Sequence record: OR594183
DNA length: 44,517 nt
Direction: 5' to 3' (one strand)
Source of the DNA: Escherichia phage vB_EcoM_SHAK7858
The notes beneath the pieces are model-generated. The model was not told the DNA's origin, ran no database searches, and saw only the letters and a list, made by a program, of their open reading frames with translations. How positions within the stretch are numbered: position 1 is the first letter of the stretch; each line of letters opens with the position of its first letter. The translations under genes and the position numbers were made by a program. This document shows, one piece after another, positions 4,291-43,525 of this stretch.

Positions 4291-4321
4291 AGGCCCCGTT
4301 ATGGGGCCTTAGTTTTATTTT
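4291..4321. terminator. Bidirectional rho-independent terminator
   Basis: aggcccc-gttat-ggggcct followed by a T-run; lies between convergent genes. Confidence 0.6.
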
Positions 4322-4523: not shown

Positions 4524-4549
4524 TTCCGCCTCCTGTTTAATTTGACTGA

Positions 4550-4578
4550 ATAGTACCCTATTATGTTGTGGTGTGCAA
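4550..4578 (-). promoter_or_regulatory. Sigma70-like promoter (TTGCAC-N17-TACTAT) with embedded palindrome TGAATAG-N4-CTATTAT
   Basis: Hexamers and spacing read on the minus strand; palindrome at about 4547-4564; directly upstream of the 4320-4523 gene. Confidence 0.45.
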
Positions 4579-4644
4579 ACTATTTGTTTACGTATTCCAG
4601 TTATTCCACTCGATTGTAAATGTAGGAATAAACTATTCGAATAG

Positions 4645-4787
4645 TTGACTTTTCACTAAAAATGTGCTAAGCTCCACCTGAGCTTGTGAAGTATGAACAA
4701 GCGACCGCGGCGCGGGCAGGTAACGGAGCGGGACGTAAGTCCTGAGTGTAGTTACGCTGACGCGTTCGGAAGGGCCATACTCTATTG
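4645..4787 (+). promoter_or_regulatory. Conserved promoter-leader element, copy 1 (TTGACT-N17-TAAGCT plus about 115 nt of leader)
   Basis: About 80 percent identical by eye to 36228-36370, with a 51-nt perfectly identical core at 4660-4710; inverted repeat aagctc-cacct-gagctt at the -10/+1 region. Confidence 0.5.
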
Positions 4788-4853
4788 CTTGTGTAAAAAG
4801 TAACAGGTTTACTTAGATTACGCCGTTTCTATGTTTAAATGATAAGGACTAGC

Positions 4854-11638: not shown

Positions 11639-11662
11639 AGGCCCCTTTCGGGGCCTTTTTCT
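11639..11662. terminator. Bidirectional rho-independent terminator
   Basis: aggcccc-tttc-ggggcct with T-run on the + strand and A-run upstream; between convergent genes. Confidence 0.65.
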
Positions 11663-12704: not shown

Positions 12705-13831
12705 CCCAGCATCTCCGGTGAAATAGTTAAACGTGCGACCTCGCCATATTCGGCGCTATAAGTAATTACATTTGCACTGCGGCCCGACATCCATCCGCCG
12801 CGAGAGGCGTAGGCGTCTTTAGCCGCTAAGGTGCGGTGTTGCTCAACAATCATGTTACGGCTTTCTACAATCTTCTGGTGGTGCAGATGGCCTACGTGGG
12901 CGTAGCTGTAAACACTCTCGCCGAACGCTTTACGGAACTTGGCAATCATAACCGGTTCGATAGCGTCGAATCGTGCTTTATGCCCGTGATGGAAGAACAG
13001 CGTCGTTTTGCCGTGTTGCACCATCTTATAAACATCCGGCGACGTATCGACGAATACACGAGGCTCGTTGTCGTACAGTGTGCTGAACATCTCCGCCAGC
13101 CAAATCATCCCGGATTCGTCGTGGTTCCCCTGAACTATAAGCAAGCGAACAGTTTTATGCTTAACCAGAGCCATATCAACAACACGGCGGACCATGCGAA
13201 TCATGTAGCGGACAAGTTTCTGGTAACGCGTGTCGGCGTCAAGGACATGACCACTCGCCGGTGTAACGGCGTCAAGACTATCGAAGTGAGCTAAGTCGCC
13301 AAGAAGATTAATAACCCCCGTACCTGCATCCGGTGCTTTCTGAAACGCAGCATCAAACCAACGAGAGAATAAGTCCTCCGCGATTTTCATATCCCAGTCG
13401 TCGCCGCTCTCGTCAGCCCAGGCTAACATACCGAGATGGAAATCAGACACGGTGTACAGGTTAAGCAGCTTGTCGTCACGTTTAGCCCGGGCGGCCTTAA
13501 CTGGCGGAACGGGAGTAATCTCCGACTTCATGCCTTCGACTACGGCTTTCATCAACTCAACCTGACGTTCGGCATCGGTGTCTGTCTTAACCCACTGCAA
13601 CTTAGTGTTACCGAACTCGTCCACCAGAGACGACGTGCCTTTAATCTTGTAGCCGTCTGGTACAAGGTGGCTTACGTCCCGCCCGTGGCCTACGCCTTTC
13701 TTAGCCAGCTTCGCTTTACGGATTCGGATAACGCGGTCTGAGATTCCGTATTTACGGGCGATATCGATATTCTTCATCCCGGCGTTCAATTCTTCCTGTA
13801 ATTGCTCGTCGGTTATTTTCTTCTGGGCCAT
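12701..13831 (-). CDS. HTH-fused calcineurin-like metallophosphoesterase (Mre11/SbcD-like motifs)
   Basis: N-terminal HTH (NIDIARKYGISDRVIRIRK), then DFHLG, GDLAH, GNHD, HHGH and GHLHH motifs. Start taken at the ATG with SD gaggaag; ORF track extends to 13936. Confidence 0.65.
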   Translation of the reverse strand: MAQKKITDEQLQEELNAGMKNIDIARKYGISDRVIRIRKAKLAKKGVGHGRDVSHLVPDGYKIKGTSSLVDEFGNTKLQWVKTDTDAERQVELMKAVVEGMKSEITPVPPVKAARAKRDDKLLNLYTVSDFHLGMLAWADESGDDWDMKIAEDLFSRWFDAAFQKAPDAGTGVINLLGDLAHFDSLDAVTPASGHVLDADTRYQKLVRYMIRMVRRVVDMALVKHKTVRLLIVQGNHDESGMIWLAEMFSTLYDNEPRVFVDTSPDVYKMVQHGKTTLFFHHGHKARFDAIEPVMIAKFRKAFGESVYSYAHVGHLHHQKIVESRNMIVEQHRTLAAKDAYASRGGWMSGRSANVITYSAEYGEVARLTISPEMLG

Positions 13832-13869
13832 GCTTACTTCCTCGTGTTTAGGATTTGTCTTATAGTAGC

Positions 13870-14061
13870 CTACTTCTCTTTCACGTTCGAGTTGCAAGCC
13901 CAGATTAAAATGAATACCCACGGCAACAGAATCCACCCGAGAAATAAGTTAGCCATGAATATCGCCAGCTTTGCTTTATGGTTACGCATATGTGCCACCA
14001 AAAACGGGATAAAATAAACGGCTACAAAAATAATTAAGAAGAACATAGTGATACCGGTCAT
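13870..14061 (-). CDS. Small two-TM membrane protein, superinfection-immunity (Imm)-like
   Basis: Two hydrophobic helices and NLFLGW motif; AT-rich. Start taken at the internal ATG preceded by SD aggag; ORF track extends to 14088. Confidence 0.5.
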   Translation of the reverse strand: MTGITMFFLIIFVAVYFIPFLVAHMRNHKAKLAIFMANLFLGWILLPWVFILIWACNSNVKEK

Positions 14062-14103
14062 AACATAACTCCTGATTTGAGATAACATCGTTGGTGTAAG
14101 TGA

Positions 14104-14132
14104 ATAGTACGCTATTATATTGGGGTGTGCAA
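14104..14132 (-). promoter_or_regulatory. Sigma70-like promoter (TTGCAC-N17-TACTAT) with embedded palindrome TGAATAG-N4-CTATTAT
   Basis: Same architecture as the promoter at 4550-4578; drives the reverse-strand cassette. Confidence 0.45.
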
Positions 14133-14239
14133 GTAGTGTGCTAGAATAATTTTGCGCCTAGTGTCGCACACGAAAAGCGGGTGGTTCCCGTCTGGCGCAT
14201 TTCCTTTAACCAGTAACCTCTTAACCAAAGGATTAAAGA

Positions 14240-24876: not shown

Positions 24877-26303
24877 TTCTTACCTCGTCTCTTCATGTAA
24901 TTAAGCAACTCTTCCTGTACCGATTTCTTCTCGTCGGTACGCGCGGCGACAACCTCGTCCAGAGTGTCTTTAGCAACGATGTGATAAAGGAACACCGGGC
25001 GCTCGTGACCCGCCTGTTTCTGGCGGACTGGGCCTATGCGCTCAACAACCTGCAAATAGTGCTCAAGGTTCCAGCCTTGCGAGATGAACGCCAGATGATG
25101 ACCCCCGTCCTGTAAATTCAAACCATGCCCGGCTGACGCAGGATGCACGCATAAAATCTCGATTTCCCCACGGTTCCACGCTTCCATCTGCTTGTTCCCC
25201 CTAGCGCCTTTGGCGAACGCCTGTGCCTGTGGGAATCGCTTAAGGATACGCTCCAGTTCGTGTTTAAACTGATAGGCTACCAGCAACGGCGCACCCTGCA
25301 ACTCCTCAACAATCGACTCGAGCGCATCCAGTTTCGTGTCGTGCACTTTCTCCCAGTCTTTGGTCGCTTCGCCATCCGGCCCTGACACATACACGGCACC
25401 AGATGCAATCTGCAAGCACTTTGAGGTCTTCGCCGCAGCGTTAGCCGCTTCAACTTCCCCGCTCTCCAGTTCTGCGAATAACTTCTCCTCCATATCTATG
25501 TACGCCTGACGCGCTTTCTTCGGCAGGTCTATTTCCACCGGTACGATAACAGGCGCTTCACAACCAAACCACTCGGCAGGGTCTATGGTCAGGCTGATGT
25601 CTTTCATCTTCTGATGAATCTCATTATCCGCACCCGGTCGTGCATGATACTCGCGGGCCATAGCCGATTTACCTTTCTGTACCGAGTTAAACCAGCGGTC
25701 TGTGAATGCCGTATACGAAGAGCCGAGGCGCTCGCCAGCGTCGATAAACCAGTTCTGACCCCACAAGTCTTTGAGGCCGTTTGGTGACGGTGTGCCCGTC
25801 AGGTTGATGAAACGCTTAACCTTTCCGAACGCGACCTTGCTGAGCGCCTTTGCCCGCTTGCTACCACCCGAACGGCTGCGGAACGATTTAAGCTTCGTGC
25901 TTTCATCGGCAACGATAACCGTAAAAGGCCAGTCGTCTTTGCCGTAGTAGTCAATTAGCCACTCGATAACTTCGTAGTTAGTGCACACCACGTTAGCATC
26001 TGACTCCAGCGCCGCGATGCGGCGCTTCTCCGAACCAGTTGCATCTACGACACGCAGACAAGGGAATTGCCATTTCTCTTGTTCAGCGGGCCACGTACCG
26101 GACGCAACACGTAACGGGGCAAGGATTAACACGCGGTCCTCTTCCGTAAGCTGCCCGTTGCGGAACAGGCGGTTGAGCACCCACATAGTGGAGGAGGTTT
26201 TACCTCCCCCCATTCCGCACCAGATATTACAGCGCGGGTGTTGCAGCATGAACGAAGTCATGAGCTTCTGGTACTCTCGACGGATAAATTTAGACATGTT
26301 CAA
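24873..26303 (-). CDS. SNF2-family DNA-dependent ATPase/helicase
   Basis: Walker A GMGGGKT, DExx-type box VIVADESTKLK, LTGTP motif. Confidence 0.8.
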   Translation of the reverse strand: MNMSKFIRREYQKLMTSFMLQHPRCNIWCGMGGGKTSSTMWVLNRLFRNGQLTEEDRVLILAPLRVASGTWPAEQEKWQFPCLRVVDATGSEKRRIAALESDANVVCTNYEVIEWLIDYYGKDDWPFTVIVADESTKLKSFRSRSGGSKRAKALSKVAFGKVKRFINLTGTPSPNGLKDLWGQNWFIDAGERLGSSYTAFTDRWFNSVQKGKSAMAREYHARPGADNEIHQKMKDISLTIDPAEWFGCEAPVIVPVEIDLPKKARQAYIDMEEKLFAELESGEVEAANAAAKTSKCLQIASGAVYVSGPDGEATKDWEKVHDTKLDALESIVEELQGAPLLVAYQFKHELERILKRFPQAQAFAKGARGNKQMEAWNRGEIEILCVHPASAGHGLNLQDGGHHLAFISQGWNLEHYLQVVERIGPVRQKQAGHERPVFLYHIVAKDTLDEVVAARTDEKKSVQEELLNYMKRRGKK

Positions 26304-26494
26304 TCCTTAACGTAGAGTACCAGCTCTTTACGCCCGAACGCGGTAACGTTGCCTGTTACATCTTCGATAACCAGTTTACCGTTCGACTCGACGAACACCG
26401 TATCAACGGCAACAGGGCGACGTGTCTTAACGTTGAAAATCATGTCGCCAGGTACGATGTCACGTGCTGGTTTACGGTCATATTCGTGTTTCAT
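26300..26494 (-). CDS. Hypothetical protein (64 aa)
   Basis: ORF with SD aagga, first gene after the promoter at 26528-26556. Confidence 0.45.
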   Translation of the reverse strand: MKHEYDRKPARDIVPGDMIFNVKTRRPVAVDTVFVESNGKLVIEDVTGNVTAFGRKELVLYVKD

Positions 26495-26524: not shown

Positions 26525-26809
26525 CTAACTATAATAGTTCGCTATTAGGTCGTCAACCTGTTTAAACGAACCAACGACAAAAACATTTGCACCGCGTTTA
26601 CGGAATCTTTCATGCTCGCGTAACTGGTGGGGGTCAGGCTTCGTGTTTTCGTCTTTCTTAATCTCGACGAACCAGATGATACCGCCGGGGAGAATTACCA
26701 GCAGGTCCATGGCGGCTCGCCGGCCTTCAAATGCCATCTTGCGAACGAGGCCGCCGATGGCCTCGAATTGCTCTTTTGCGTATTTCTGTATTTTGCCTTC
26801 CGGGGTCAT
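26525..26809 (-). CDS. VRR-NUC domain nuclease
   Basis: PD-(D/E)XK-like pattern D...EIK (DLLVILPGGIIWFVEIKK) in a 94 aa protein adjacent to an SNF2 helicase. Confidence 0.7.
   Translation of the reverse strand: MTPEGKIQKYAKEQFEAIGGLVRKMAFEGRRAAMDLLVILPGGIIWFVEIKKDENTKPDPHQLREHERFRKRGANVFVVGSFKQVDDLIANYYS
26528..26556 (-). promoter_or_regulatory. Sigma70-like promoter (TTGACG-N17-TATAGT) with embedded palindrome ATAATAG-N4-CTATTAG
   Basis: Read on the minus strand; overlaps the 3' end of the VRR-NUC coding region. Confidence 0.45.
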
Positions 26810-30082: not shown

Positions 30083-30111
30083 ACTATAATAGCTAACTAT
30101 TCATGTGTCAA
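30083..30111 (-). promoter_or_regulatory. Sigma70-like promoter (TTGACA-N17-TATAGT) with embedded palindrome ATAATAG-N4-CTATTCA
   Basis: Read on the minus strand, upstream of the SSB-like gene; palindrome at 30086-30103. Confidence 0.45.
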
Positions 30112-30330
30112 ATAAAATTTTGCAATAGGGATTATGTTCTCGAAATTAAGCATATCGGCCGGTTCGAACTCATCTTCTACAGGGTCGTATCGCATCATGG
30201 TACCGTTCAAGAACGTGAACGATTCCGAGTGTAGATACCCATCCCAGCGCCATACCATCAAAAAATCTTTATCAGTCGGCATTTCATTTACTTGAATAAT
30301 TCTAAATCCTCCTCTGTAACCTGATTCCAC
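30097..30330 (-). CDS. Hypothetical protein (77 aa)
   Basis: ORF overlapping the Cas4-like nuclease gene end. Confidence 0.4.
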   Translation of the reverse strand: MESGYRGGFRIIQVNEMPTDKDFLMVWRWDGYLHSESFTFLNGTMMRYDPVEDEFEPADMLNFENIIPIAKFYLTHE

Positions 30331-31538
30331 TCAGGACGTTTGTCATCTGCCGTTGCGACACATGGTGCGCCTGGCTTACGTGTAATGAAGTCTTTCAGTC
30401 CATCTTCAGGCACAACTTTAACCGCTTCGGTTGGCGTCATGAGCACTTGCTTCATTAGCGCTATGCCATACTTGCCAGCCACTTTCTCCGCGTCTTTCCA
30501 CACGCGATTACCCTGACGACCTTCAACCAGCTTGTACCCAGGCACTTTCTTACCGGAATGCAAAGCGGCAGCCATAGCTTTCTCAACCTTATCGATGTGC
30601 TGGCGCAGCAACGGCAACTTCTCATACTCAGCTACGAGTTGTTCAGGCGTCAGTTCCAGCGCAAAGTCGTCCTCCAGTTCTTCCGCCAGTACAGAATTAA
30701 CCGTCTTTGTACGCGCGGCGCACTGTTCAGAGAACCGACACCACTGACAACCATCGACCGACGGCTTGAAGTCCGACGCTTTCAGGTTCTTCTTGCCACG
30801 GGAATAGGCATCTAACGCTAACAGCGCACGTTTCTGCGCGAACTTAGCGAACAGTTCCAGACCTTCAACCGAGATGTCCCACTCCGACGCGCCCCCGGCG
30901 TACGGCTGGAAGATGACCAGGCGCACTACTGAGATGTTATAGCGTCTCTTGAGTCGACGATAAACACCGAGAGCGTAAAGCATAAGCTGCTTGTTTTCTT
31001 TCGCTTCGACGCGATGCCGCCCTGTTTTCAGGTCGCCGATAATGAGCATGTGCTCGTCGGTGTTTGCCAGTTCCTGGACAGCAACGAGGTCAGCGGTTCC
31101 GAACGTCTCAACGCCTTCATACCCCGGATGCAATACCTCAGTAAGATTGACCCGCATTTCCAGCTTAGCGTAAGCCGCTACGTCGATAATCGCTTTGCAG
31201 TAGTCGGTGTACTTGCGCACCTGCTCAATCATGTCCGCCGTAATCAGTACAGCACCTTTCATCGGGCTGATTAGCGCCTTAATCTGGCCTTTACCCTCGT
31301 CCAGCACGTAAGCGCCAACTTCACGCTCTAACGGCAGTGCAGTTCCGCGGATATAGGCGTTGAGATGGACCTCCGCTATGGTGTGGCACGCTGTACCTGT
31401 AACGGCGGCTTTACCTGACGTGTTGGGAATATCTTTCTCACAGGCCAGCGATGCGGCGCAGCTTAGCCACTTTTTAGCCCCTGACGGCGACAGCAGGGCG
31501 TGCACATCGTTATTGCCGCCGCGTTCTTTTAAAATCAT
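30288..31538 (-). CDS. PD-(D/E)XK nuclease with Cys cluster (Cas4-like / DUF2800-like)
   Basis: GTADLV...IIGDLKTG nuclease core plus CQWCRFSEQC cluster. Start taken at the ATG with SD gggagg; ORF track extends to 31553. Confidence 0.7.
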   Translation of the reverse strand: MILKERGGNNDVHALLSPSGAKKWLSCAASLACEKDIPNTSGKAAVTGTACHTIAEVHLNAYIRGTALPLEREVGAYVLDEGKGQIKALISPMKGAVLITADMIEQVRKYTDYCKAIIDVAAYAKLEMRVNLTEVLHPGYEGVETFGTADLVAVQELANTDEHMLIIGDLKTGRHRVEAKENKQLMLYALGVYRRLKRRYNISVVRLVIFQPYAGGASEWDISVEGLELFAKFAQKRALLALDAYSRGKKNLKASDFKPSVDGCQWCRFSEQCAARTKTVNSVLAEELEDDFALELTPEQLVAEYEKLPLLRQHIDKVEKAMAAALHSGKKVPGYKLVEGRQGNRVWKDAEKVAGKYGIALMKQVLMTPTEAVKVVPEDGLKDFITRKPGAPCVATADDKRPEWNQVTEEDLELFK

Positions 31539-31807
31539 ACCCTGACCTCCCACTGGTCAATTAAATGTCGTGTCTTGTGGTCACAATGCATCGCCCAGCT
31601 ATACATCGACTCGAAGACATAAAAGTCAGGCTTGGCGAAAGTTGTGCGCTTAATCTGTGACACGTGACGGCCTATGTCTTTAGGCCGTGGTACTTTTCCT
31701 AAGTACGCCATCTCTTCCATCTGGTGCGCACCGGACGGAGCACGCAATAGCCATAGCGCCTCTGTGTTATCACGCCTGTCGACGGCTCGGTAGAGTTGGT
31801 AAATCAT
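31535..31807 (-). CDS. Hypothetical protein (90 aa)
   Basis: ORF translationally coupled (ATGA) to the nuclease gene. Confidence 0.45.
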   Translation of the reverse strand: MIYQLYRAVDRRDNTEALWLLRAPSGAHQMEEMAYLGKVPRPKDIGRHVSQIKRTTFAKPDFYVFESMYSWAMHCDHKTRHLIDQWEVRV

Positions 31808-31850: not shown

Positions 31851-32369
31851 TTATTCTTCTTCGAAATACTTGTTCTTGATTGCTGTCAGGCGTTCCAGGT
31901 ACTCAACCAGGTCTTCGTCTTTAATCGCGGCAATCTTCATCTTCTTACCTGTGAACTCTTCCAGCAGTTCATCAGAATCATCGCACGCGGCATCGCTAGG
32001 ACCTTCATTAATTGCATCGTCGATGGCCTGAATCTGGTCACGCAGAGACTTGTAATCGACTTCTTCTTTCTCTTCTTCCGGTTCTGGCGCAGGTTCCTCT
32101 ACTTTAGCTTTACGCGGCTTGCGTTTTGGCTTCTCTTCCTCCGCCGGTTTAGTGTCAACTACGTCTTCACCCTCGACCGGGATTTCTTTTGTTTCTTCTT
32201 TTACAACAGTAGGCGTGATTGTTGCAGTTTCTGCGACACCACTGTCGACGTCTTTACCATATGGCGCCGTGATAGCCTTCGGCAGTTCAGTACGGCGTGC
32301 ACTGTTCGCAGCAATCAGTTCATGCGCAACTACGAAACGTTCCAGTAATACTAAGAATTTCTCTAACAT
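31851..32369 (-). CDS. Hypothetical acidic protein (172 aa) with a basic KPKRKPRKAK patch
   Basis: Glu/Asp-rich ORF, second gene of the leftward operon. Confidence 0.5.
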   Translation of the reverse strand: MLEKFLVLLERFVVAHELIAANSARRTELPKAITAPYGKDVDSGVAETATITPTVVKEETKEIPVEGEDVVDTKPAEEEKPKRKPRKAKVEEPAPEPEEEKEEVDYKSLRDQIQAIDDAINEGPSDAACDDSDELLEEFTGKKMKIAAIKDEDLVEYLERLTAIKNKYFEEE

Positions 32370-32393: not shown

Positions 32394-32621
32394 TTACTCG
32401 CCGTCGCCTTCTGTAAGGCTATCGTCTATTAATTCAAATTTACCGTTTGGGTGTTGAATAGCTTCTTGCCCGCAATGGTCGCAGACAACAAGTTTATCGA
32501 ACCCATCAAACTCGTCCCCGACTACGCAAGAAAGTACAAATTTATGTTTTGTGCACACTTCCTGCGATTCTCCGAAAATTGCTAGAAAACCTTTAGCTAT
32601 GGCTCCCGTTATTGTGTTCAT
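32394..32621 (-). CDS. Small zinc-ribbon-like protein (75 aa)
   Basis: Cys pairs CTKHK...C and CDHCG; first gene after the promoter at 32650-32678. Confidence 0.45.
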   Translation of the reverse strand: MNTITGAIAKGFLAIFGESQEVCTKHKFVLSCVVGDEFDGFDKLVVCDHCGQEAIQHPNGKFELIDDSLTEGDGE

Positions 32622-32649
32622 ATCCGCCCCTCTCGTTTGGTATGGGCTA

Positions 32650-32678
32650 ACTATAATAGCGAACTATTCACATGTCAA
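32650..32678 (-). promoter_or_regulatory. Leftward promoter (TTGACA-N17-TATAGT) with embedded palindrome ATAATAG-N4-CTATTCA
   Basis: Read on the minus strand; palindrome at 32653-32670; part of the divergent control region next to the HTH gene. Confidence 0.5.
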
Positions 32679-32696
32679 TGGGCTTTTCTAAAATAA

Positions 32697-32714
32697 TTAA
32701 TATGGTACTATTCA
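32697..32714 (+). promoter_or_regulatory. Second, degenerate palindrome copy (TTAATAT-N4-CTATTCA) overlapping a TACTAT -10 for the HTH gene
   Basis: Lies about 40 bp from the first site and about 30 bp upstream of the HTH start codon; SD aaggag follows. Confidence 0.4.
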
Positions 32715-32742
32715 CATATCAACTGACTAAGGAGTAATTGAC

Positions 32743-32958
32743 ATGCAACCATCTGAACTAGGTATCCGTGTAGAACAACGCCGTAAAGAACTCGGCATCT
32801 CCCAGCGCCGTTTGGCGGCCCTGACCGGCGTTTCCCAGGGCGCGATTAACCAACTGGCACTTGGAGTAACTCAGGACGTCCGCCCGGCAACGCTGTTCAA
32901 ACTGGCGGAAGTTCTGGAAGTAGACGCCAAGTGGCTGGCGTTAGGTGAAGGGGCTTAA
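32743..32958 (+). CDS. Cro/CI-type (XRE-family) helix-turn-helix DNA-binding protein
   Basis: Classic HTH LGISQRRLAALTGVSQGAINQL; strong SD; terminator downstream. Confidence 0.85.
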   Translation: MQPSELGIRVEQRRKELGISQRRLAALTGVSQGAINQLALGVTQDVRPATLFKLAEVLEVDAKWLALGEGA

Positions 32959-32975
32959 AGCCCCTTTCTTTTTAT
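32949..32975. terminator. Rho-independent terminator after the HTH gene
   Basis: aggggc-ttaa-gcccct followed by ttctttttat. Confidence 0.6.
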
Positions 32976-33286
32976 AGCAACTTATCGAGTTCTTCCAAAT
33001 TCTTAATAGTGTGTTGCACGTTCAGGTACTGAATCCAGGCGAGAAACCACGCACTTACAGGAAAACTTATAACAATAGTTATCGATATAATTAATTTGAA
33101 AAGGCACTTTATAATCTCTGCCAGCGTCATGTCTAAAATGTCTTTAAACTCCGCAAAAATCCCCGCTGCATACACACAAAAAGTCCACCAGTTGTTGCTT
33201 ACAGCGGAAACACATGTCAGGTATGACGGGCGGTATCCTGCCTTCACTGCTTTAAACGGGTTATCTATAAAATCGTAAATATTCAT
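32972..33286 (-). CDS. Hypothetical membrane protein (104 aa), AT-rich
   Basis: Hydrophobic helices; noticeably lower GC than flanking genes. Confidence 0.45.
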   Translation of the reverse strand: MNIYDFIDNPFKAVKAGYRPSYLTCVSAVSNNWWTFCVYAAGIFAEFKDILDMTLAEIIKCLFKLIISITIVISFPVSAWFLAWIQYLNVQHTIKNLEELDKLL

Positions 33287-35535
33287 TCCAAATCCTCCTC
33301 GGTCACTGTCAGCATTTCATTCGGTTCGTATATTGTCTTCGGAATCTTGTTATCTGTTATCATGGTGTTCAGTCTGTAACGGCCTGGGATTATCTGATTG
33401 TTTTCGTCAGTACCCGGAACAAGATACCCAGCCTCAACCATTTTCTTAATCTTCCCGCGTTCTATGGCTTCTTTGGAGTTAAACGCCTTTGCGTTGGGGT
33501 CAGACTGCGCGAGCTTATTCGCTGCGGATACCGTGATGCCCTCGTTGCCGTTGTAGGTCCCCTCCGCCAGTTCAAACGCCGCGAGTATCGTGGCCTCGGA
33601 ACTGTTGACGGCGTTCTCTATGGTTTTACGTACATTTTGTTTACCTTCGTTAGTTAACCCTTCTTCCCTCTCTTTCTCCTCGTCGGTCTTGAATGGCTCG
33701 AAGCCCCACGGCATCAATACAAGCGCCTTGTGCGGCTCAGGCAGGTCGAGGTTTACTATTGTGCCGTATTCCTCTGTGCTACCGAGGAACTCAACCGCGC
33801 GGTACTCTTTCGGCGGCGGTGCTTCACGGAACTGTACAGACTCCAGTACCATGCCAACCGTCTTCTGTTGCGGACCGTGCTTAAATTTAGAGTGGTATAC
33901 GTTTATCTGACGGTCGGTAGCGCGTTCGATTGTCAGTTCCACGTCGACACCCGCATACAATGCTCCACTGCCGCGGGCTTTCTTTCCGCCCTTCGGAGTA
34001 TGGTGAACGACACCGACAGCGGCTTTAGTTGCATCGCGCACTTCTTTCAGGATGGCGATAACTTTACCCATACCGATTGCCGTTGATGAACTGTTCTCGT
34101 CGAACTTATCAATCGTCAGGGCCAGCGTCTGGTTAAGGGTGTCGAAGGCAACCATGCCAATAGGTTCATCCCCTGCGGTTTCGCGCATCCTGCGGATTAG
34201 AGCTGGAATTTTTTTATCACCATGCGTAGCGAGTATTTCGCCCATATCGATGACATGTACATAATCTTTACCTTCCTCGCCATATTTAGCCGCGAGTGCA
34301 TCAATACGTGTTCGTGTAGCTGCACCACCCTCGCCGTCAATATAGAAATGGTGGCAACGTTGGGTGTCAGCCCCCGCAAACCGGTACCCGGCGGCGCTCA
34401 GGTACATCATCCCCAGCGTATAGAATGATTTGTACGTGCCGGATTCCCCGACAATATCCCAGATACAATCCGACGGCATGTACCCCTCAACGACGAAATC
34501 AGCCTTTACCGGTTCTGGTAACTCGTCCTCTTCTTCAAGGTCTTCCAGCGTGCAAGTTACAGGCTCCTCGTTCTCTGTGCGGTGCAGTTCTTCAATCTCT
34601 TCATCCGGTAAATCAGGCAGAGCCGCACGAATGCTGTTAATACTGATAGGTTGCTTGTCTACGTTAAGCTCGTCCGGCAGGCCGCACATACGCAGGGCCA
34701 AATGCTGTCGGCGGTTAAGCTCGGTGCAAGCGCCGTTGTTTGTATGCTGGCACACAAAGCGCACTTCTTTACCATCAAGCATGATGCTTGTGGAGCCTTT
34801 GCCTGTATGCAGATGTTCGTTAGGGCATGGGACTTCGTACCCGCGCCCGGAAGATAAAGCGTCAAGGCCAAGCTCGGCTTCGCAGAAATGCGCTATATCA
34901 GCATTAAGCCCATACTCATCGGCGGCAAGTGTCTTAACTTCACGTTTACTCAACCCCATCTCTTCGGCTTTCTTGATGTACCGCTCGGCACGGATAACAC
35001 GCCCTTCTGTAACCGTTATCTTTGACTCTCTATGTGGCAGATAGATAAGGCGGTTGCCGTCTTCCGTGCAGTGGTCACGCAAGGCTTCATCTATTTCTAA
35101 CTCTGCACAAATAGCCCGTTGGACCATCCACGCGTCGTTAGAGTTAAACGGCGTGCGAGCCGGAACCAGAACGCGGAAGGCGTAATCACCGTTTTTACAC
35201 ACATGCTGATGCGATGCCGTTGTATGCAGAATATTGAAGAACGGTGCGTTCTTGAATTTGCGGGTAAGGTCGCGGTACTGAGTACGGTTGAGATGGTCAA
35301 AATCGAACTTAACCACACTGTCTTCCAGGATAGCGTTTTTACGGCGACCCCCAACAGGCGCAATAGCTTTCTGCTTAATCTTGGCAGCGTCGTACTCTTC
35401 CTTAGACCACGACGGATCCACGGATAAACGCTTCGATGTATCGCAGACATACTCCACAAACTGCTCGAGCGGCATCTCACGCGCTACAGGGTTTTTATCG
35501 AATGTGTTGCGCAGCGTTGCAAAAACAATATTCAT
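33283..35535 (-). CDS. DNA primase / RecA-like replicative ATPase fusion
   Basis: N-terminal primase-like region with a Cys/His zinc-binding segment; C-terminal Walker A GESGTYKS, Walker B MVAFDTL and VVHHTPKGG. Confidence 0.75.
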   Translation of the reverse strand: MNIVFATLRNTFDKNPVAREMPLEQFVEYVCDTSKRLSVDPSWSKEEYDAAKIKQKAIAPVGGRRKNAILEDSVVKFDFDHLNRTQYRDLTRKFKNAPFFNILHTTASHQHVCKNGDYAFRVLVPARTPFNSNDAWMVQRAICAELEIDEALRDHCTEDGNRLIYLPHRESKITVTEGRVIRAERYIKKAEEMGLSKREVKTLAADEYGLNADIAHFCEAELGLDALSSGRGYEVPCPNEHLHTGKGSTSIMLDGKEVRFVCQHTNNGACTELNRRQHLALRMCGLPDELNVDKQPISINSIRAALPDLPDEEIEELHRTENEEPVTCTLEDLEEEDELPEPVKADFVVEGYMPSDCIWDIVGESGTYKSFYTLGMMYLSAAGYRFAGADTQRCHHFYIDGEGGAATRTRIDALAAKYGEEGKDYVHVIDMGEILATHGDKKIPALIRRMRETAGDEPIGMVAFDTLNQTLALTIDKFDENSSSTAIGMGKVIAILKEVRDATKAAVGVVHHTPKGGKKARGSGALYAGVDVELTIERATDRQINVYHSKFKHGPQQKTVGMVLESVQFREAPPPKEYRAVEFLGSTEEYGTIVNLDLPEPHKALVLMPWGFEPFKTDEEKEREEGLTNEGKQNVRKTIENAVNSSEATILAAFELAEGTYNGNEGITVSAANKLAQSDPNAKAFNSKEAIERGKIKKMVEAGYLVPGTDENNQIIPGRYRLNTMITDNKIPKTIYEPNEMLTVTEEDLE

Positions 35536-35728: not shown

Positions 35729-35941
35729 TTACTTAACGCCCGCAATCCACGCACGCTCCGAAGCGTAGAAACGACACTTACTTAAAGCCTCGATTGGCAT
35801 CTTAATAATGCGTGTCGGTTCCAACAAATGATTAGGCTTACATATTTCCGCATAGAATCCGCTGTCAGTAATTTCCGACGCAAACTTAAACCAGTATTTA
35901 ACTTTACAGTTTTCAAAGTAACAACCCATACGCCCAATCAT
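35729..35941 (-). CDS. Hypothetical protein (70 aa)
   Basis: ORF translationally coupled to the upstream HTH gene. Confidence 0.4.
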   Translation of the reverse strand: MIGRMGCYFENCKVKYWFKFASEITDSGFYAEICKPNHLLEPTRIIKMPIEALSKCRFYASERAWIAGVK

Positions 35942-36120
35942 TTCACGTTCTCCTTAATCCATGCTTCAACTTTATTACGGTCAAATGTTCCTGGTAAACG
36001 GCGACCCATAACCTTAATACAGCAATCAGGGAATTTACCGCTGCGCAACCAGTTATTAATTGTTTGACGTGTCACCCCGATACGTTCAGCCACTTCATTC
36101 TGTGTCATGTAATGCTGCAT
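35938..36120 (-). CDS. Small HTH DNA-binding protein (AlpA/excisionase-like fold)
   Basis: MTQNEVAERIGVTRQTINNWLRSGKFP; start taken at the ATG with SD aggagat. Confidence 0.55.
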   Translation of the reverse strand: MQHYMTQNEVAERIGVTRQTINNWLRSGKFPDCCIKVMGRRLPGTFDRNKVEAWIKENVK

Positions 36121-36151: not shown

Positions 36152-36180
36152 AGTATAGGATAGCGTGAATGTAAAAGCAA
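36152..36180 (-). promoter_or_regulatory. Leftward promoter (TTGCTT-N17-TATACT) for the replication-side operon
   Basis: Read on the minus strand; followed by an aaacaggag leader before the HTH gene. Confidence 0.4.
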
Positions 36181-36227: not shown

Positions 36228-36370
36228 TTGACTTTTACTAAGAAATGTGCTAAGCTCCACCTGAGCTTGTGAAGTATGAACAAGCGACCGCGGTGCGGCA
36301 GGAAACGGAGCGGTGCGTCAGCACTGAGTGTAGTGTCGCTGCCTGCATTCGGAAGGGCCATAATCTATTG
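36228..36370 (+). promoter_or_regulatory. Conserved promoter-leader element, copy 2 (TTGACT-N17-TAAGCT plus leader)
   Basis: Same length as copy 1 at 4645-4787, identical 51-nt core at 36243-36293, diverged centre retaining the 10-mer ctgagtgtag. Confidence 0.5.
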
Positions 36371-36457
36371 TAAATCCCGTCTAAATAACCCAAGTCACTA
36401 ATAATTAAAAGTTTCTATAGTTGCCGTAAGCAAGGTAGAGAGTACTTCACTCCGCTG

Positions 36458-36536: not shown

Positions 36537-36565
36537 TTGCACACCCCAACATAATAGGATACTAT
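36537..36565 (+). promoter_or_regulatory. Sigma70-like promoter (TTGCAC-N17-TACTAT) with embedded palindrome ATAATAG-N4-CTATTCA
   Basis: Palindrome at 36551-36568; about 35 nt upstream of the ATG at 36600. Confidence 0.45.
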
Positions 36566-36599
36566 TCACTTATCGAAACGAGACATAAGGAATTTAGAA

Positions 36600-36818
36600 A
36601 TGAACAAAGCGACCGCAAGCGTAGTTTCCGCAATCAAAGAAGTTTACGGCATCGATATCTCAGAGCGCGTAATTATCGGGAACAAGCGCAACTTCTTTAC
36701 GTTCGACACCGACGGAATGGATGAAAATGATTTTGTTAACGTACAACGTTTCGCTAACGGTAAAGGACTTCGTAACGAGCCAGCGGGTTACAAGAAATTT
36801 GCTATCTACTTTAAATAA
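36600..36818 (+). CDS. Hypothetical protein (72 aa)
   Basis: ORF with SD and upstream promoter. Confidence 0.5.
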   Translation: MNKATASVVSAIKEVYGIDISERVIIGNKRNFFTFDTDGMDENDFVNVQRFANGKGLRNEPAGYKKFAIYFK

Positions 36819-36836
36819 GACAGAGGAGTGATGGTT

Positions 36837-37022
36837 ATGTTTAAGAAGAGTCAGTTGGTTCGGAATAAATCCACCGGCGATTTATTTACGGTAATAGAGT
36901 CGGAGTTAATGTGGTTCGGTTTTGTAGAGGTTAATAGCGTAGTTGGGTTTGGTAAAGGGTTACTCCGTAAATGTGATTTAGAACTCATCGGCAACAATTT
37001 TAAATTCAAAGGGGCGAAGTGA
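36837..37022 (+). CDS. Hypothetical protein (61 aa), AT-rich
   Basis: ORF with SD agaggag; start chosen by spacing. Confidence 0.4.
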   Translation: MFKKSQLVRNKSTGDLFTVIESELMWFGFVEVNSVVGFGKGLLRKCDLELIGNNFKFKGAK

Positions 37023-37462
37023 TGATTAAGCTAGAGATTAAATCGAAAGAGACAAGACAAACCGTAGCCAGTAAAGAATTCAACAGTAAATCTGAAATTG
37101 GCCCCTGGCTAAAACAGTACGCACATTTGCAGACTGTTTACATCCTTCTGACGAAAGCAAGTGGTGTAGTCACTTTACTTGAACCGGCATCGAATCATGA
37201 TGCTTGTGCCGACGACTATGAGGGGGGGGGGGTTGCCGTGAATAATATTTTAATTGCGGGGGTTGGTATGAGTCCGTATAACGAATTCCGCTTACGCCGT
37301 CTGATTGGCGGTCTGCGCGCCGCCGAGTTTGGTGTTGAATGCCGGGAAAAGGCGAAGTACGCCCCGTGGAAGTCGTGGCATTTGGCTCATGCTAAGGCGG
37401 TAGCACAGTACCGTGAGTACAAGTTAAACAGTTTTCTTAAGCACCACGGGGTTGAGTTATGA
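37019..37462 (+). CDS. Hypothetical protein (147 aa) containing an 11-G homopolymer
   Basis: ORF overlapping the previous stop; poly-G at 37222-37232 encodes EGGGV. Confidence 0.45.
   Translation: MMIKLEIKSKETRQTVASKEFNSKSEIGPWLKQYAHLQTVYILLTKASGVVTLLEPASNHDACADDYEGGGVAVNNILIAGVGMSPYNEFRLRRLIGGLRAAEFGVECREKAKYAPWKSWHLAHAKAVAQYREYKLNSFLKHHGVEL
37222..37232 (+). repeat. Homopolymeric G11 tract inside a coding region
   Basis: Eleven consecutive G read directly; position confirmed against the ORF frame. Confidence 0.9.
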
Positions 37463-37605
37463 GAGAAGCATTTGAACGTCGGGCCGTTGCAGATGGTCTG
37501 CCTGTCAACAAGGGCTCGCGGAACGAGTACCTTAGCGCTAAGACGCGTCTCGCGTGGCGGATGTGGAAAGCTGGTGTGCAGTATGCGATGAATACGAGGT
37601 GAGAT

Positions 37606-37794
37606 ATGGGCGAGTGGATTAAGTGTAGCGAGCGGATGCCGGAGCCTTATGAATACGTTCTTGTAACTGATGGTTTTGTCGGTTGTGAGGTTATGCGTGT
37701 TAATTCAGATGGCTACTGGGGACCAGCGAAGAGTTTATACCACGGCGATATCTCCCACTGGATGCCCTTACCTGAGCCACCGGCGCCGGTGTAA
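37606..37794 (+). CDS. Hypothetical protein (62 aa)
   Basis: ORF with SD; terminator downstream. Confidence 0.45.
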   Translation: MGEWIKCSERMPEPYEYVLVTDGFVGCEVMRVNSDGYWGPAKSLYHGDISHWMPLPEPPAPV

Positions 37795-37828
37795 CAGGTC
37801 AATAGTTTACTATTTGGCTTTGTGACTT

Positions 37829-37942: not shown

Positions 37943-37971
37943 TTGCACACTAAAATAGAATAGGCTACTAT
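37943..37971 (+). promoter_or_regulatory. Sigma70-like promoter (TTGCAC-N17-TACTAT) with embedded palindrome AGAATAG-N4-CTATTCA
   Basis: Palindrome at 37957-37974; followed by the aaacgagaggagagacagag leader. Confidence 0.45.
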
Positions 37972-38001
37972 TCATTTACACAAACGAGAGGAGAGACAGA
38001 G

Positions 38002-41570: not shown

Positions 41571-41592
41571 ATCTATTTTCTGTGATGACTAG

Positions 41593-41621
41593 TTGACTAT
41601 TATCCTCGACCCTATTATATT
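41593..41621 (+). promoter_or_regulatory. Sigma70-like promoter (TTGACT-N17-TATATT) carrying two CTATTAT half-sites
   Basis: Hexamers and spacing; followed by an acaacgagaacggag leader. Confidence 0.45.
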
Positions 41622-42354: not shown

Positions 42355-42575
42355 CTAATAACGAATATGAAAAAGCATGCGTCGAATCCGCGACCGGTGA
42401 ATCTGAAATAGCGTGGATTGACACCCACATCGAACACCACTTACGGCAGGTGGATAATCTTATGGAACGCCGCCGTGAGCTGATTAGCCGCTTCAACATG
42501 AACAAGGGGCGCGCTATTTCTGACGATTTCGATGGGGATTACCGAAATGGCGATTTTTATGAGGGAGCCGAATAA
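42351..42575 (+). CDS. Hypothetical protein (74 aa)
   Basis: ORF, translationally coupled. Confidence 0.45.
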   Translation: MTNNEYEKACVESATGESEIAWIDTHIEHHLRQVDNLMERRRELISRFNMNKGRAISDDFDGDYRNGDFYEGAE

Positions 42576-42865
42576 TGCCTAAAATCACAATCGCGTCACT
42601 TGAGCGTCGTATTCTGGTCCTTGAGTCAGAGAAACAGACGTTAGGCGGGCAACTGTCAATTAACGGTGAGTTTCAACTGGAGGCGTTTAAGGAGTTACTG
42701 GCTATTAAGACGCAAGAACCGAACGTGTACGCGGGGTTGTTCGTCGGTGAAGACAGTTCTTCGCTGGCTTATTACAACACGGCAACCGCAGCTTCAAAGG
42801 ATGGGGCTGATGTGATAATCCCGCTGTACGACAATGTTGTCGGACCAGAAGATGAAAGCGCCTGA
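42575..42865 (+). CDS. Hypothetical protein (96 aa)
   Basis: ORF, translationally coupled. Confidence 0.45.
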   Translation: MPKITIASLERRILVLESEKQTLGGQLSINGEFQLEAFKELLAIKTQEPNVYAGLFVGEDSSSLAYYNTATAASKDGADVIIPLYDNVVGPEDESA

Positions 42866-43121: not shown

Positions 43122-43292
43122 ATGTTCAGTGACATCAACGCAGCAATCGAAGAGGCAATCTGGCGACGCTACAACGGCGAGCAGCAACGGCACTTCTGCC
43201 TGGTGCAACGCGGCAACATGGTCGCCGTAGTGCAGGACCGCGATAACAAATATCCGAATGCGATGTGGACGACGAGGAATTTCTTAGGATGA
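43122..43292 (+). CDS. Hypothetical protein (56 aa)
   Basis: ORF; start chosen at the ATG. Confidence 0.35.
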   Translation: MFSDINAAIEEAIWRRYNGEQQRHFCLVQRGNMVAVVQDRDNKYPNAMWTTRNFLG

Positions 43293-43525
43293 TTACCAGC
43301 ATTCCTAACCTTATTAAAGAATTTGGCACGATGGCGGAGACGTGCCGACAAACAGGCCTCAACGAAATGACGATTGCGAAGTACAGCAAAGACGTGAAAT
43401 GCGAGCGCCATGTAATTTATAATAACCGCCTTATGACGCACGTTAAGACAAGCCCGGTGTTATTCACGCGCCGTGGTATCACTAAAACAGAGCAACGCAT
43501 TGCGCGAGAGGAGAGCGGGGAATGA
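43289..43525 (+). CDS. Hypothetical protein (78 aa)
   Basis: ORF; ATGA coupling. Confidence 0.4.
   Translation: MITSIPNLIKEFGTMAETCRQTGLNEMTIAKYSKDVKCERHVIYNNRLMTHVKTSPVLFTRRGITKTEQRIAREESGE

What the first reader, a model, noticed from the sequence alone, without database searches (positions are those of the whole stretch)
32622..32742. Recurrent palindrome embedded in at least seven promoters, with a divergent switch-like region beside a Cro-like HTH gene
The 18-bp inverted repeat ATAATAG-N4-CTATTCA (half-site AATAG) occurs inside promoter-like sequences at about 4547, 14101, 26531, 30086, 32653, 36551 and 37957, plus a degenerate copy at 32697. It appears in two promoter contexts: TTGCAC-N17-TACTAT (4550, 14104, 36537, 37943) and TTGACA/G-N17-TATAGT (26528, 30083, 32650). 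At 32622-32742 two copies about 40 bp apart sit between a leftward promoter for the replication-side operon and the start of a 71-aa XRE-type HTH gene. This is the geometry of a repressor-operator switch in a genome with no integrase. The HTH protein, or the AlpA-like HTH at 35938-36120, is a candidate to bind the palindrome and time early transcription genome-wide, including the inserted cassette and the orphan at 4320-4523.
Basis: partly seen in the sequence, partly recalled or inferred. Interest (0 to 1): 0.75.

Follow-up and report, generated by a model that had tools for sequence, protein, structure and literature searches.

The report
Cro-type operator in phage promoters
A 14-bp palindrome (AATAG-N4-CTATT) sits inside every strong promoter of this virulent E. 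coli phage and is most likely the binding site of its small 434-Cro-like repressor. That would be an ordinary kind of regulator used genome-wide, and the motif was previously misread in the literature as a phage-polymerase promoter.

Summary
AATAG-N4-CTATT occurs 8 times against 0.04 expected. It is the top palindrome and the top recurrent motif of the genome. It lies in all 7 strong sigma70-type promoters, in two registers.

The window is a Kagunavirus (Guernseyvirinae), a virulent siphovirus with no phage RNA polymerase or integrase annotated in close relatives. In 40 related genomes the half-sites are as conserved as the -35 and -10 hexamers, while the central N4 and the neighbouring spacer positions vary.

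In related lineages that lack the AlpA-like gene, the same promoters carry symmetrically altered operators (AATAC-N4-GTATT, ATTAG-N4-CTAA). These lineages have different Cro recognition helices, and each has sites next to cro.

The 71-aa protein is a 434-Cro/P22-c2-type HTH. Best reading (about 0.65): it is a Cro-only, autoregulated, genome-wide repressor circuit that turns down the strong promoters. It is not a bistable switch, and AlpA is disfavoured.

Main caveat: Kagunavirus and Jerseyvirus share the core operator although their Cro helices differ. No binding data exist. The motif was already published as a "PHIRE phage promoter".

The parts
32655..32668 (.). O1: perfect operator AATAGCGAACTATT, in the spacer of leftward promoter P32678
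   Evidence: Present in 37 of 37 Kagunavirus-like loci about 88 bp upstream of cro.
32699..32712 (.). O2: one-mismatch operator AATATGGTACTATT overlapping the cro -10. Part of a 25-nt direct repeat of O1 plus the P_L -35 (32654-32678 versus 32698-32722, 84% identity).
   Evidence: Invariant in 32 unique Kagunavirus sequences; the G-to-T change at half-site position 5 is fixed.
32703..32711 (+). Probable cro promoter: extended -10 TGgTACTAT with no good -35. An alternative candidate is TTCACA-N16-TAAAAT at 32667-32694.
   Evidence: Direct reading of the sequence. SE2 and L062 have a -35 17 nt upstream of the orthologous -10.
32743..32958 (+). cro-like gene: 71 aa, HTH_3/XRE, recognition helix S31-Q-G-A-I-N-Q37. 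Candidate operator-binding repressor.
   Evidence: Pfam HTH_3 49.7 bits against a cutoff of 23. PDB sequence hits to 434 Cro, 434 repressor and P22 c2. AF2 pLDDT 81 with XRE-type fold hits.
32947..32967 (+). Intrinsic terminator directly after cro, making the gene monocistronic
32650..32678 (-). Class B promoter P_L: TTGACA-N17-TATAGT, with the operator in the spacer. Drives 32394-32621, 31851-32369, 31535-31807 and the exonuclease gene 30288-31553.
30083..30111 (-). Class B promoter with operator 30088-30101. Drives the ssDNA-binding/annealing gene and the DNA polymerase gene.
   Evidence: gene annotation from relatives
26528..26556 (-). Class B promoter with operator 26533-26546. It lies in the last codons of the upstream resolvase-like gene and drives 26300-26494 and the DNA helicase gene.
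36537..36565 (+). Class A promoter TTGCAC-N17-TACTAT with operator 36553-36566 (right half-site inside the -10). Drives the rightward small genes 36600-37794.
37943..37971 (+). Class A promoter with operator 37959-37972. Drives 38002 onward, including the lysis genes.
14104..14132 (-). Class A promoter with operator 14103-14116. Drives the superinfection-immunity (Imm) gene 13870-14088 and the leftward cassette 11662-13936.
   Evidence: (PF14373),
4550..4578 (-). Class A promoter with operator 4549-4562. Drives the orphan gene 4320-4523.
37801..37814 (.). Orphan perfect operator AATAGTTTACTATT with no -35, between the stop of 37606-37794 and a terminator hairpin. Present in only some Kagunaviruses.
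41588..41601 (.). Relaxed operator ACTAGTTGACTATT overlapping the -35 of promoter TTGACT-N17-TATATT (41593-41621, + strand), upstream of 41656 and the terminase-side operon
   Evidence: ACTAG...CTATT is found in nearly all Kagunaviruses, while all Jerseyviruses have the swapped AATAG...CTAGT. The upstream flank varies.
4640..4653 (.). Weak candidate half-operator AATAGTTGACTTTT over the -35 of TTGACT-N17-TAAGCT (4645-4673, + strand)
   Evidence: Its paralogue at 36228 lacks the half-site, so the evidence is weak.
35938..36120 (-). AlpA-like HTH_17 gene. Considered as the binder and disfavoured. Its own promoter (TTGCTT-N17-TATACT, 36152-36180, - strand) lacks the operator.

Best explanation
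AATAG-N4-CTATT is the operator of the phage's own 71-aa 434-Cro/P22-c2-type HTH protein (32743-32958), which would bind it as a symmetric dimer.

One operator is built into each strong sigma70 promoter. By inferred positions it is centred at about -12.5 in class A, about -18.5 in class B, and about -33.5 at P41593. Bound protein would therefore occlude host RNA polymerase.

cro is a monocistronic unit with its own terminator and a weak promoter (extended -10, no -35). That promoter is overlapped by a fixed lower-match operator, O2.

Inferred sequence of events:
1. After infection, host RNA polymerase fires all strong promoters.
2. Cro accumulates, helped by rising genome copy number.
3. Cro progressively shuts down the perfect-operator promoters: the replication/recombination operons, the rightward small-gene operons, the Imm cassette and the orphan gene.
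4. At higher levels Cro also represses the one-mismatch sites, namely its own promoter (negative autoregulation) and P41593.

This is a Cro-only circuit in a virulent phage, not a lysogeny switch.

Shown: the existence, statistics, placement and conservation of the operators, the lineage-specific changes, and the fold/family of the protein.
Inferred: binding, repression, the order of events, and transcription start sites.
For: 1. Enrichment and exact spacing: 8 observed against 0.04 expected. It is the top palindrome and top repeat. Half-sites pair only at N4, and site density is 115-fold higher in intergenic DNA.

2. Independence from promoter elements:
- The operator occupies two registers in the window, a third in SE2, L062 and VSiA, and a fourth over a -35.
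- A perfect copy exists without any promoter (37801).
- In SE2 the same asymmetric 14-mer occurs in both orientations relative to transcription.

3. Operator-like conservation. In promoters defined only by their -35 and -10 (54 class A and 65 class B unique sequences from 40 genomes), the spacer-embedded half-sites carry about 2 bits per position, like the hexamers. The N4 centre and adjacent spacer positions vary.

4. Link to Cro:
- O1 and O2 are the only substantial inverted repeats upstream of cro, and O2 is invariant.
- Relatives without an AlpA-like gene keep the same promoter architecture but with symmetric operator changes that accompany different Cro helices, always with sites next to cro. 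L062 (TQGGIGH) has AATAC-N4-GTATT at P_L, P_cro and two more promoters. L077 and L080 (SQGYISH) have ATTAG-N4-CTAA. L090 and L085 have TGTAG-N4-CTACA. L082 has GTATA-N6-TATAC.
- The -10 hexamers change with the operator half-site: TACTAT, TATTGT, TAAAGT, TAATAT.

5. The protein: HTH_3 at E = 4e-13. Closest solved sequences are 434 Cro (also 71 aa), 434 repressor and P22 c2. The AF2 model matches dimeric operator binders.

6. No other recognisable DNA binder fits the phylogenetic profile.
Against: - There is no binding or expression data of any kind.
- Kagunavirus, Jerseyvirus and Tsm2 share the core AATAG operator, yet their Cro proteins are only 42-48% identical with different helix-3 residues (SQGAINQ, SQSLITH, SQGMLNH). 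Meanwhile the flanking replication genes are 88-97% identical between the window and SE2. The only operator difference seen is a preference for T at position -1 in Jerseyvirus.
- In Jerseyvirus, Tsm2 and Cornellvirus the cro-proximal sites are degenerate, so the strict recurrence test is uninformative there.
- Helix-to-half-site covariation does not reduce to a simple code, and the number of independent lineages is small.
- A conserved relaxed operator on the promoter upstream of the terminase-side operon complicates a simple early-to-late switch.
Confidence: 0.65

Rival explanations
1. The palindrome is bound by a different phage protein of unrecognised fold. An example is the conserved 90-aa phrog_4965 protein (31535-31807) in the P_L operon. 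Under this reading Cro regulates only itself or something else.
For: The 90-aa protein is 96% identical in SE2 and 64% in Tsm2 (both AATAG-type) but only 30-35% in L062, VSiA and SE1, which have altered operators. This tracks the operator type at least as well as the Cro helix does. It would also explain why the operator is unchanged between genera whose Cro helices differ.
Against: It has no Pfam or PDB similarity, and its AF2 model is unreliable (pLDDT 41; beta-rich, no HTH). Its identity pattern mirrors the general divergence of the whole replication module. It is absent from L082 and L090, where cro-adjacent recurrent palindromes still exist. A 14-bp dyad with half-site centres 9 bp apart is the textbook site for a 434/P22-type HTH dimer.
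Confidence: 0.1
2. The AlpA-like HTH_17 protein (35938-36120) binds the palindrome.
For: It is a DNA-binding HTH. It is 82% identical between Kagunavirus and Jerseyvirus, the two genera with the most AATAG sites.
Against: It is absent from Tsm2, which has perfect AATAG palindromes at orthologous promoters. It is also absent from L062, L077, L080, VSiA and SE1, which keep the operator-in-promoter system. Its own promoter lacks the operator. From general knowledge, small Xis/AlpA-type winged helices usually bind as monomers to direct or irregular repeats rather than to tight dyads.
Confidence: 0.07
3. No dedicated regulator exists. The palindrome is an intrinsic feature of a family of paralogous promoter cassettes, or the site of a host factor, and is kept because it makes strong promoters.
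For: All seven strong promoters carry it, and within each class the promoters are similar beyond the palindrome. The half-site resembles -10-like sequence (CTAT / ATAG). The core A.TAG-N4-CTA.T resembles the E. coli trp operator ACTAG-N4-CTAGT (from memory, not tested).
Against: It occupies three to four registers relative to the -35 and -10, and one copy has no promoter. The spacer half-site is conserved where sigma70 reads no bases. Lineage-specific changes are symmetric on both half-sites in phages of related hosts. Only 8 of 37 TACTAT/TATAGT hexamers have it. The G-to-T difference from CTAG falls in the part of the trp operator that is critical for TrpR (from memory).
Confidence: 0.1
4. 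The motif is a phage-RNA-polymerase promoter, which is how PHIRE-based genome papers labelled it.
For: PMC9825357 reports seven 'phage-encoded RNA polymerase' promoters with the consensus tgAATAGTa-ccTATTat-T. PMC7203180 lists seven PHIRE promoters.
Against: No RNA polymerase gene is present in the window or in annotated relatives. The ORFs longer than 600 aa are the tape measure, tail, tailspike, DNA polymerase and helicase-primase genes. Every site is embedded in a near-consensus sigma70 -35/N17/-10.
Confidence: 0.01

Closest known systems
Phage 434 Cro / 434 repressor with 14-bp operators (ACAA-N6-TTGT), and lambda-type Cro turn-down of PL and PR during lytic growth
   Same: The protein is a small HTH_3 protein of identical length (71 aa) with significant sequence similarity (E about 1e-5) and the same fold class. 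The operator is a 14-bp dyad overlapping promoters. The divergent promoter region contains the gene's own promoter, which implies autoregulation.
   Different: There is no cI partner, no PRM, no tripartite OR/OL and no integrase. Each promoter has a single operator. At least 8-9 promoters across the whole genome are targeted, in several registers. The half-site sequence is different.
P22 c2 / Cro operators (ANTNAAG-N4-CTTNANT; consensus recalled from memory)
   Same: Half-sites flank a 4-bp non-contacted centre. The N-terminal 41 residues align without gaps, and G29-V-S31, A34-I35 and Q37 are shared (sequence recalled from memory; PDB hit).
   Different: Half-site bases differ (AATAG versus TNAAG). 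P22 c2 is a two-domain lysogeny repressor with clustered operators.
Genome-wide repressor regulons of temperate phages (P1 C1 operators; mycobacteriophage L5 gp71 'stoperators'); from general knowledge
   Same: One small repressor has many dispersed sites across the genome, including a site not associated with a promoter (37801).
   Different: Those are immunity repressors that maintain lysogeny, and their sites are asymmetric. Here the phage is virulent, the sites are dyads, and nearly all lie inside promoters.
Restriction-modification controller (C) proteins with paired C-boxes
   Same: Structural neighbours in the fold search (C.BclI, C.AhdI, C.Esp1396I). A small XRE dimer with a strong and a weak operator at its own promoter gives concentration-dependent autoregulation.
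   Different: C proteins activate and then repress a single operon. Here many unrelated promoters are targeted, and no activation geometry is evident.

Membership tests
Cro/CI-type HTH (Pfam HTH_3, XRE family; 434 Cro-like) | HTH_3 domain scoring above Pfam's gathering threshold | tested here: met
   49.7 bits against a cutoff of 23, E = 3.9e-13, residues 11-65
Cro/CI-type HTH (Pfam HTH_3, XRE family; 434 Cro-like) | Sequence similarity to solved 434 Cro / 434 repressor / P22 c2 DNA-binding domains | tested here: met
   434 Cro E = 8.5e-6 over residues 6-68; 434 repressor E = 1.1e-5; P22 c2 E = 5e-3
Cro/CI-type HTH (Pfam HTH_3, XRE family; 434 Cro-like) | Compact all-helical XRE fold | tested here: met
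   Single-sequence AF2 model: pLDDT 81, helices at 5-17, 21-28, 32-39 and 48-68. Foldseek TM-scores of 0.6-0.7 to HipB, C.BclI, 434 Cro (39% identity), SinR and P22 c2, but all E-values are above 1e-3.
Cro/CI-type HTH (Pfam HTH_3, XRE family; 434 Cro-like) | Binds a dyad-symmetric operator as a dimer | not testable with these tools
   Only inferred, from the 14-bp dyad next to the gene and from lineage covariation
Lambda-type bistable CI/Cro lysogeny switch | A second, divergently transcribed repressor (CI) sharing the operators | tested here: not met
   The divergent first gene 32394-32621 has no HTH or Pfam hit. It is absent from Bas71, which keeps all operators. No other XRE or CI gene was found.
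Lambda-type bistable CI/Cro lysogeny switch | Tripartite operators (OR1-3 / OL1-3) with graded affinity | tested here: not met
   One operator per promoter. Only O1 (perfect) and O2 (one mismatch) lie near cro, 44-45 bp apart. The spacing is not conserved across genera (55 bp in SE2, 65 bp in L062).
Lambda-type bistable CI/Cro lysogeny switch | Integrase or other lysogeny module | tested here: not met
   None in the annotation of close relatives. PMC7203180 reports no lysogeny genes.
Phage-RNA-polymerase promoter (the PHIRE label in the literature) | A phage-encoded RNA polymerase that reads the motif | tested here: not met
   No RNA polymerase gene in the window ORFs or in annotated relatives. 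Every site lies within a sigma70-type -35/N17/-10.
AlpA/Xis-type HTH_17 regulator as cognate binder | Co-occurrence of the protein with the operator system across relatives | tested here: not met
   Absent by tblastn from Tsm2, L062, L077, L080, VSiA and SE1, which retain promoter-embedded operators

The most novel reading that the evidence does not exclude
The Cro/operator pair may be more than an internal timer. Because every strong promoter of these virulent phages carries the operator, Cro made in an already infected cell would silence a superinfecting relative. That would be repressor-based exclusion without lysogeny. Under this reading, the lineage-specific, symmetric half-site switches (AATAG, AATAC, ATTAG, TGTAG) together with altered recognition helices are 'heteroimmunity' groups of strictly lytic phages. 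They would also be a natural set of orthogonal repressor/operator pairs.
Probability: 0.15. Interest if true: 0.7.

Novelty: new member of a known kind. Interest (0 to 1): 0.42.

Why it matters
Guernseyvirinae (Kagunavirus, Jerseyvirus and relatives; more than 500 genomes in the phage collection searched) are widely isolated for therapy and biocontrol, and some are used as engineering chassis. Their transcriptional programme has not been studied.

If the reading is right, three things follow:
- It supplies the promoter and operator map and a single candidate master regulator.
- It corrects published annotations that call the motif a phage-RNA-polymerase promoter and that omit or mislabel cro.
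- It predicts how inserted payload genes will be timed.

It also offers a compact example of a Cro-only global circuit in a virulent phage, with naturally diversified operator specificities.

Tried and rejected
- Natural knock-out test. Bas71 and Bas74 annotations lack a 'transcriptional regulator', but tblastn shows an identical cro in both. It was an annotation miss, so there is no knock-out.
- Phylogenetic profile of all window ORFs against palindrome-bearing and palindrome-free genomes. Only shadow ORFs and one unknown 96-aa protein (42575-42865, no domains) matched. VSiA and SE1 later proved to carry a degenerate version of the operator, which weakens the test.
- Pfam scan of 29 small proteins for other DNA binders. 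This gave only a weak, sub-threshold NinH-like hit at 43265-43525.
- Structure prediction of the 90-aa rival protein failed (pLDDT 41), and it has no PDB sequence hit.
- Strict recurrence test of cro-proximal perfect palindromes. It is informative in Kagunavirus, L062, L082 and L090, and uninformative where the cro-proximal site is imperfect.
- Helical phasing of O1 and O2. The spacing is 44/45, 55, 65 and 51 bp in different lineages, so obligatory cooperative phasing was rejected.
- A conserved ATATG-N10-CATAT dyad over O2 as an alternative operator. It is not conserved in Jerseyvirus, so it was rejected.
- Literature searches for transcriptomes or Cro studies in these genera found nothing relevant.

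Full report
**Identity of the window.** The 44.5-kb window is essentially a complete genome of a Kagunavirus-like coliphage (Guernseyvirinae). It is 90-94% identical over the replication region to phiEc4, Bas70-76, Golestan and others. Annotated relatives show a virulent siphovirus layout with terminase, head, tail and lysis genes on one strand and replication genes on the other. They have no integrase and no RNA polymerase. PMC7203180 likewise reports no lysogeny genes.

**Checking the observation.**
- AATAG-N4-CTATT occurs 8 times exactly, against 0.04 expected from dinucleotide-preserving shuffles. The eighth (37801-37814) was missed.
- An unbiased enumeration of all 5-mer/N0-10 palindromes ranks it first by far in the window (8 copies) and in Bas71 (7 copies). 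A PHIRE-like scan for recurrent 16-mers also ranks it first.
- A generic strong-promoter regex (TTG[AC][AC]N, 16-18 nt, TA[CT][AT][AG]T) finds exactly seven sites in the genome, and all seven carry the palindrome.
- Class A is TTGCAC-N17-TACTAT, with the right half-site inside the -10 (4578-, 14132-, 36537+, 37943+). Class B is TTGAC[AG]-N17-TATAGT, with the whole palindrome in the spacer (26556-, 30111-, 32678-).
- Only the inner 14 bp is symmetric.

**Is it just -10 composition?** No.
- AATAG and CTATT each occur about 40 times, but when they pair they do so only at N4.
- Only 8 of 37 TACTAT/TATAGT hexamers carry the palindrome.
- With 5.7% of the genome intergenic, site density in intergenic versus coding DNA is 115-fold for perfect sites, 49-fold for one mismatch, 3.8-fold for two and 1.6-fold for three.
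- One-mismatch sites include O2 at 32699 (over the cro -10) and ACTAGTTGACTATT at 41588 (over the -35 of TTGACT-N17-TATATT).

**Population conservation.** I fetched 37 Kagunavirus-like loci around cro from IMG/VR, plus Bas71 and Bas74.
- The palindrome is present at every orthologous position.
- To avoid ascertainment bias I defined promoters by their -35 and -10 only. Of 195 generic hits, 170 have the perfect palindrome. The remainder are coding-region chance matches or orthologous promoters with a single change (AGTAG, ACTAG, CTACT, CTAGT).
- Column profiles of 54 class A and 65 class B unique sequences show the spacer-embedded half-sites at about 2 bits per position, equal to the hexamers. 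The N4 centre and neighbouring spacer positions are variable.
- This is the signature of a dimer-binding operator rather than of sigma70 contacts.

**The cro-proximal region.**
- O1 (32655-32668, perfect) lies in the spacer of the leftward promoter P32678.
- O2 (32699-32712, AATAT...CTATT) overlaps TGgTACTAT, an extended -10 for cro. There is no good -35.
- Both O2 and the TGn motif are invariant in 32 unique sequences.
- O1 plus the P_L -35 (32654-32678) is directly repeated at 84% identity as 32698-32722. O2 therefore looks like a degenerate duplicate recruited as the cro promoter.
- O1 and O2 are the only substantial inverted repeats upstream of cro.
- cro ends in its own terminator.
- In SE2 and L062 the orthologous -10 has a proper -35 17 nt upstream, which supports this promoter assignment over the alternative TTCACA-N16-TAAAAT.
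- O1-O2 spacing varies between lineages (44/45, 55 and 65 bp), so strict phasing is unlikely.

**The proteins.**
- The 71-aa product is HTH_3 (49.7 bits against a cutoff of 23). Its closest solved sequences are 434 Cro (also 71 aa), 434 repressor and P22 c2.
- A single-sequence AF2 model (pLDDT 81) matches XRE-type dimeric operator binders.
- The second HTH (35938-36120) is HTH_17/AlpA-like. Its promoter (36152-36180, - strand) has no operator.
- No other small protein shows a DNA-binding domain.

**Who binds? Comparative evidence.**
- The AlpA-like gene is present only in Kagunavirus and Jerseyvirus. It is absent from Serratia phage Tsm2, which still has perfect AATAG palindromes at orthologous promoters.
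- Searching IMG/VR with an alignment of five Cro homologues gave 43 further loci. Lineages with different helix-3 sequences carry different recurrent dyads in the same class A/B promoter architecture, always including sites next to cro, and none has AlpA:

| Lineage | Cro helix-3 | Operator |
|---|---|---|
| L062 | TQGGIGH | AATAC-N4-GTATT at P_L, P_cro (one mismatch) and two more promoters |
| L077 / L080 | SQGYISH | TTAGC-N2-GCTAA (= ATTAG-N4-CTAA) |
| L090 / L085 | SDSMLHK / SDSALNK | TGTAG-N4-CTACA, flanking cro |
| L082 | SKQSISH | GTATA-N6-TATAC |

- The L062 change is a symmetric G5-to-C / C10-to-G substitution at the orthologous P_L.
- The -10 hexamers co-vary with the operator (TACTAT, TATTGT, TAAAGT, TAATAT). 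The operator therefore shapes the -10, not the reverse.
- With a generalised half-site (AWTAS), VSiA and SE1 (Cornellvirus-like), which first looked palindrome-free, have 4-5 promoter-embedded sites against about 0.6 expected. L058-L063 also have such sites.
- A strict test asked whether the best perfect palindrome within 160 bp upstream of cro recurs elsewhere more than palindromes from random windows. It is positive for Kagunavirus, L062, L082 and L090. It is uninformative where the cro-proximal site is imperfect.

**Caveats.**
- Kagunavirus, Jerseyvirus and Tsm2 share the core AATAG operator, yet their Cro proteins are only 42-48% identical with different helix-3 residues. The flanking replication genes are 88-97% identical between the window and SE2. 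The only operator difference I found is a stronger T at position -1 in Jerseyvirus (TAATAG...CTATTA).
- A conserved 90-aa protein of unknown function (31535-31807, phrog_4965) has an identity pattern that tracks operator type about as well. However, that pattern also mirrors overall module divergence. The protein has no Pfam or PDB similarity, and its AF2 model is unreliable.
- The 75-aa gene divergent from cro is absent from Bas71 although the operators are intact there, so it is excluded as the binder.

**Mechanism (inferred).**
- The operators are centred at about -12.5 (class A), about -18.5 (class B), about -15.5 (a third register in SE2, L062 and VSiA) and about -33.5 (P41593). All overlap the RNA polymerase footprint and the spacers are an optimal 17 bp. 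Repression, not activation, is therefore expected.
- cro is weakly and autonomously expressed. Perfect operators would be filled first. The fixed one-mismatch O2 and the conserved one-variant operator at P41593 would be filled later. At P41593 nearly all Kagunaviruses have ACTAG...CTATT, and all Jerseyviruses have the swapped AATAG...CTAGT.
- Promoters without a full operator are P_alpA, the two TTGACT-N17-TAAGCT promoters, and TGTACA-N18-TATAAT upstream of the small terminase gene.
- This resembles lambda/434 Cro turn-down of early transcription, but as a Cro-only, genome-wide regulon in a virulent phage. It is not a bistable switch.

**Prior knowledge.**
- The motif has been reported. PMC9825357 lists seven PHIRE 'phage-encoded RNA polymerase' promoters with the consensus tgAATAGTa-ccTATTat-T. 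PMC7203180 lists seven PHIRE promoters.
- GenBank records variously call the gene 'Cro', 'transcriptional repressor' or 'DicA'.
- I found no paper linking the motif to Cro, and no transcriptome for these genera.

**Verdict.**
- The kind of system is well known, while its genome-wide deployment and lineage-specific operator changes are a modestly new and testable picture.
- Interest 0.42.

Noticed in passing
window 4645-4790 and 36228-36375 (+ strand): A duplicated element of about 150 nt. It consists of promoter TTGACT-N17-TAAGCT followed by a conserved transcript (CCACCTGAGCTTGTGAAG...), with about 88% identity between the two copies. In relatives the internal ATG is lost and indels break the reading frame, while stems change in a compensatory way: RNAalifold on 14 unique copies gives 22 pairs, 4 of them with compensatory changes. 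There is no Rfam family at gathering threshold. It is probably an undescribed structured small RNA or leader, currently annotated as a small CDS (for example Bas71_0007).
   Followed up: partly
window 14151-14215 (+): An Rfam int-alpA RNA motif (RF02996) scores 36.6 bits against a gathering score of 35.8. It lies in the divergent intergenic region between the Imm-cassette promoter P14132 and the tail-chaperone gene.
   Followed up: no
L003 (Bas71, PQ850615.1) 32649-32861; L004 (Bas74, PQ850627.1) 33202-33414: The GenBank annotations of Bas71 and Bas74 omit the cro gene, whose product is 100% identical to the window protein. They call a 96-nt opposite-strand ORF instead.
   Followed up: yes
window 37801-37814: A perfect operator copy with no -35, between a stop codon and a terminator hairpin, about 158 bp upstream of the P37943 operator. 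It is present in only some Kagunaviruses. It could be an auxiliary or roadblock site, or a relic of a promoter cassette.
   Followed up: partly
window 36152-36180 (- strand): The promoter of the alpA / helicase-primase operon (TTGCTT-N17-TATACT) is the only good leftward promoter without the palindrome. It contains two direct ATAG/CTAT elements instead.
   Followed up: no
window 32394-32621 (- strand): The first gene of the P_L operon encodes a 75-aa protein with a CxnC...CxxC pattern that looks like a zinc ribbon (phrog_32657, unknown function). It is an accessory gene, absent from Bas71 and Bas74.
   Followed up: partly
window 32743-35535 compared with L005 (SE2): Mosaicism: cro and the helicase-primase gene are only 46-48% identical between Kagunavirus and Jerseyvirus. 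The adjacent replication genes (helicase, exonuclease, the 90-aa protein and the 64-aa protein) are 88-97% identical. This suggests module exchange or accelerated divergence at the cro-primase block.
   Followed up: partly
window 43265-43525 (+): A weak, sub-threshold Pfam hit to phage NinH (E = 4e-4, 20.6 bits against a cutoff of 29.8). NinH is a Fis-like DNA-binding protein (from memory), so this could be another small DNA binder.
   Followed up: no
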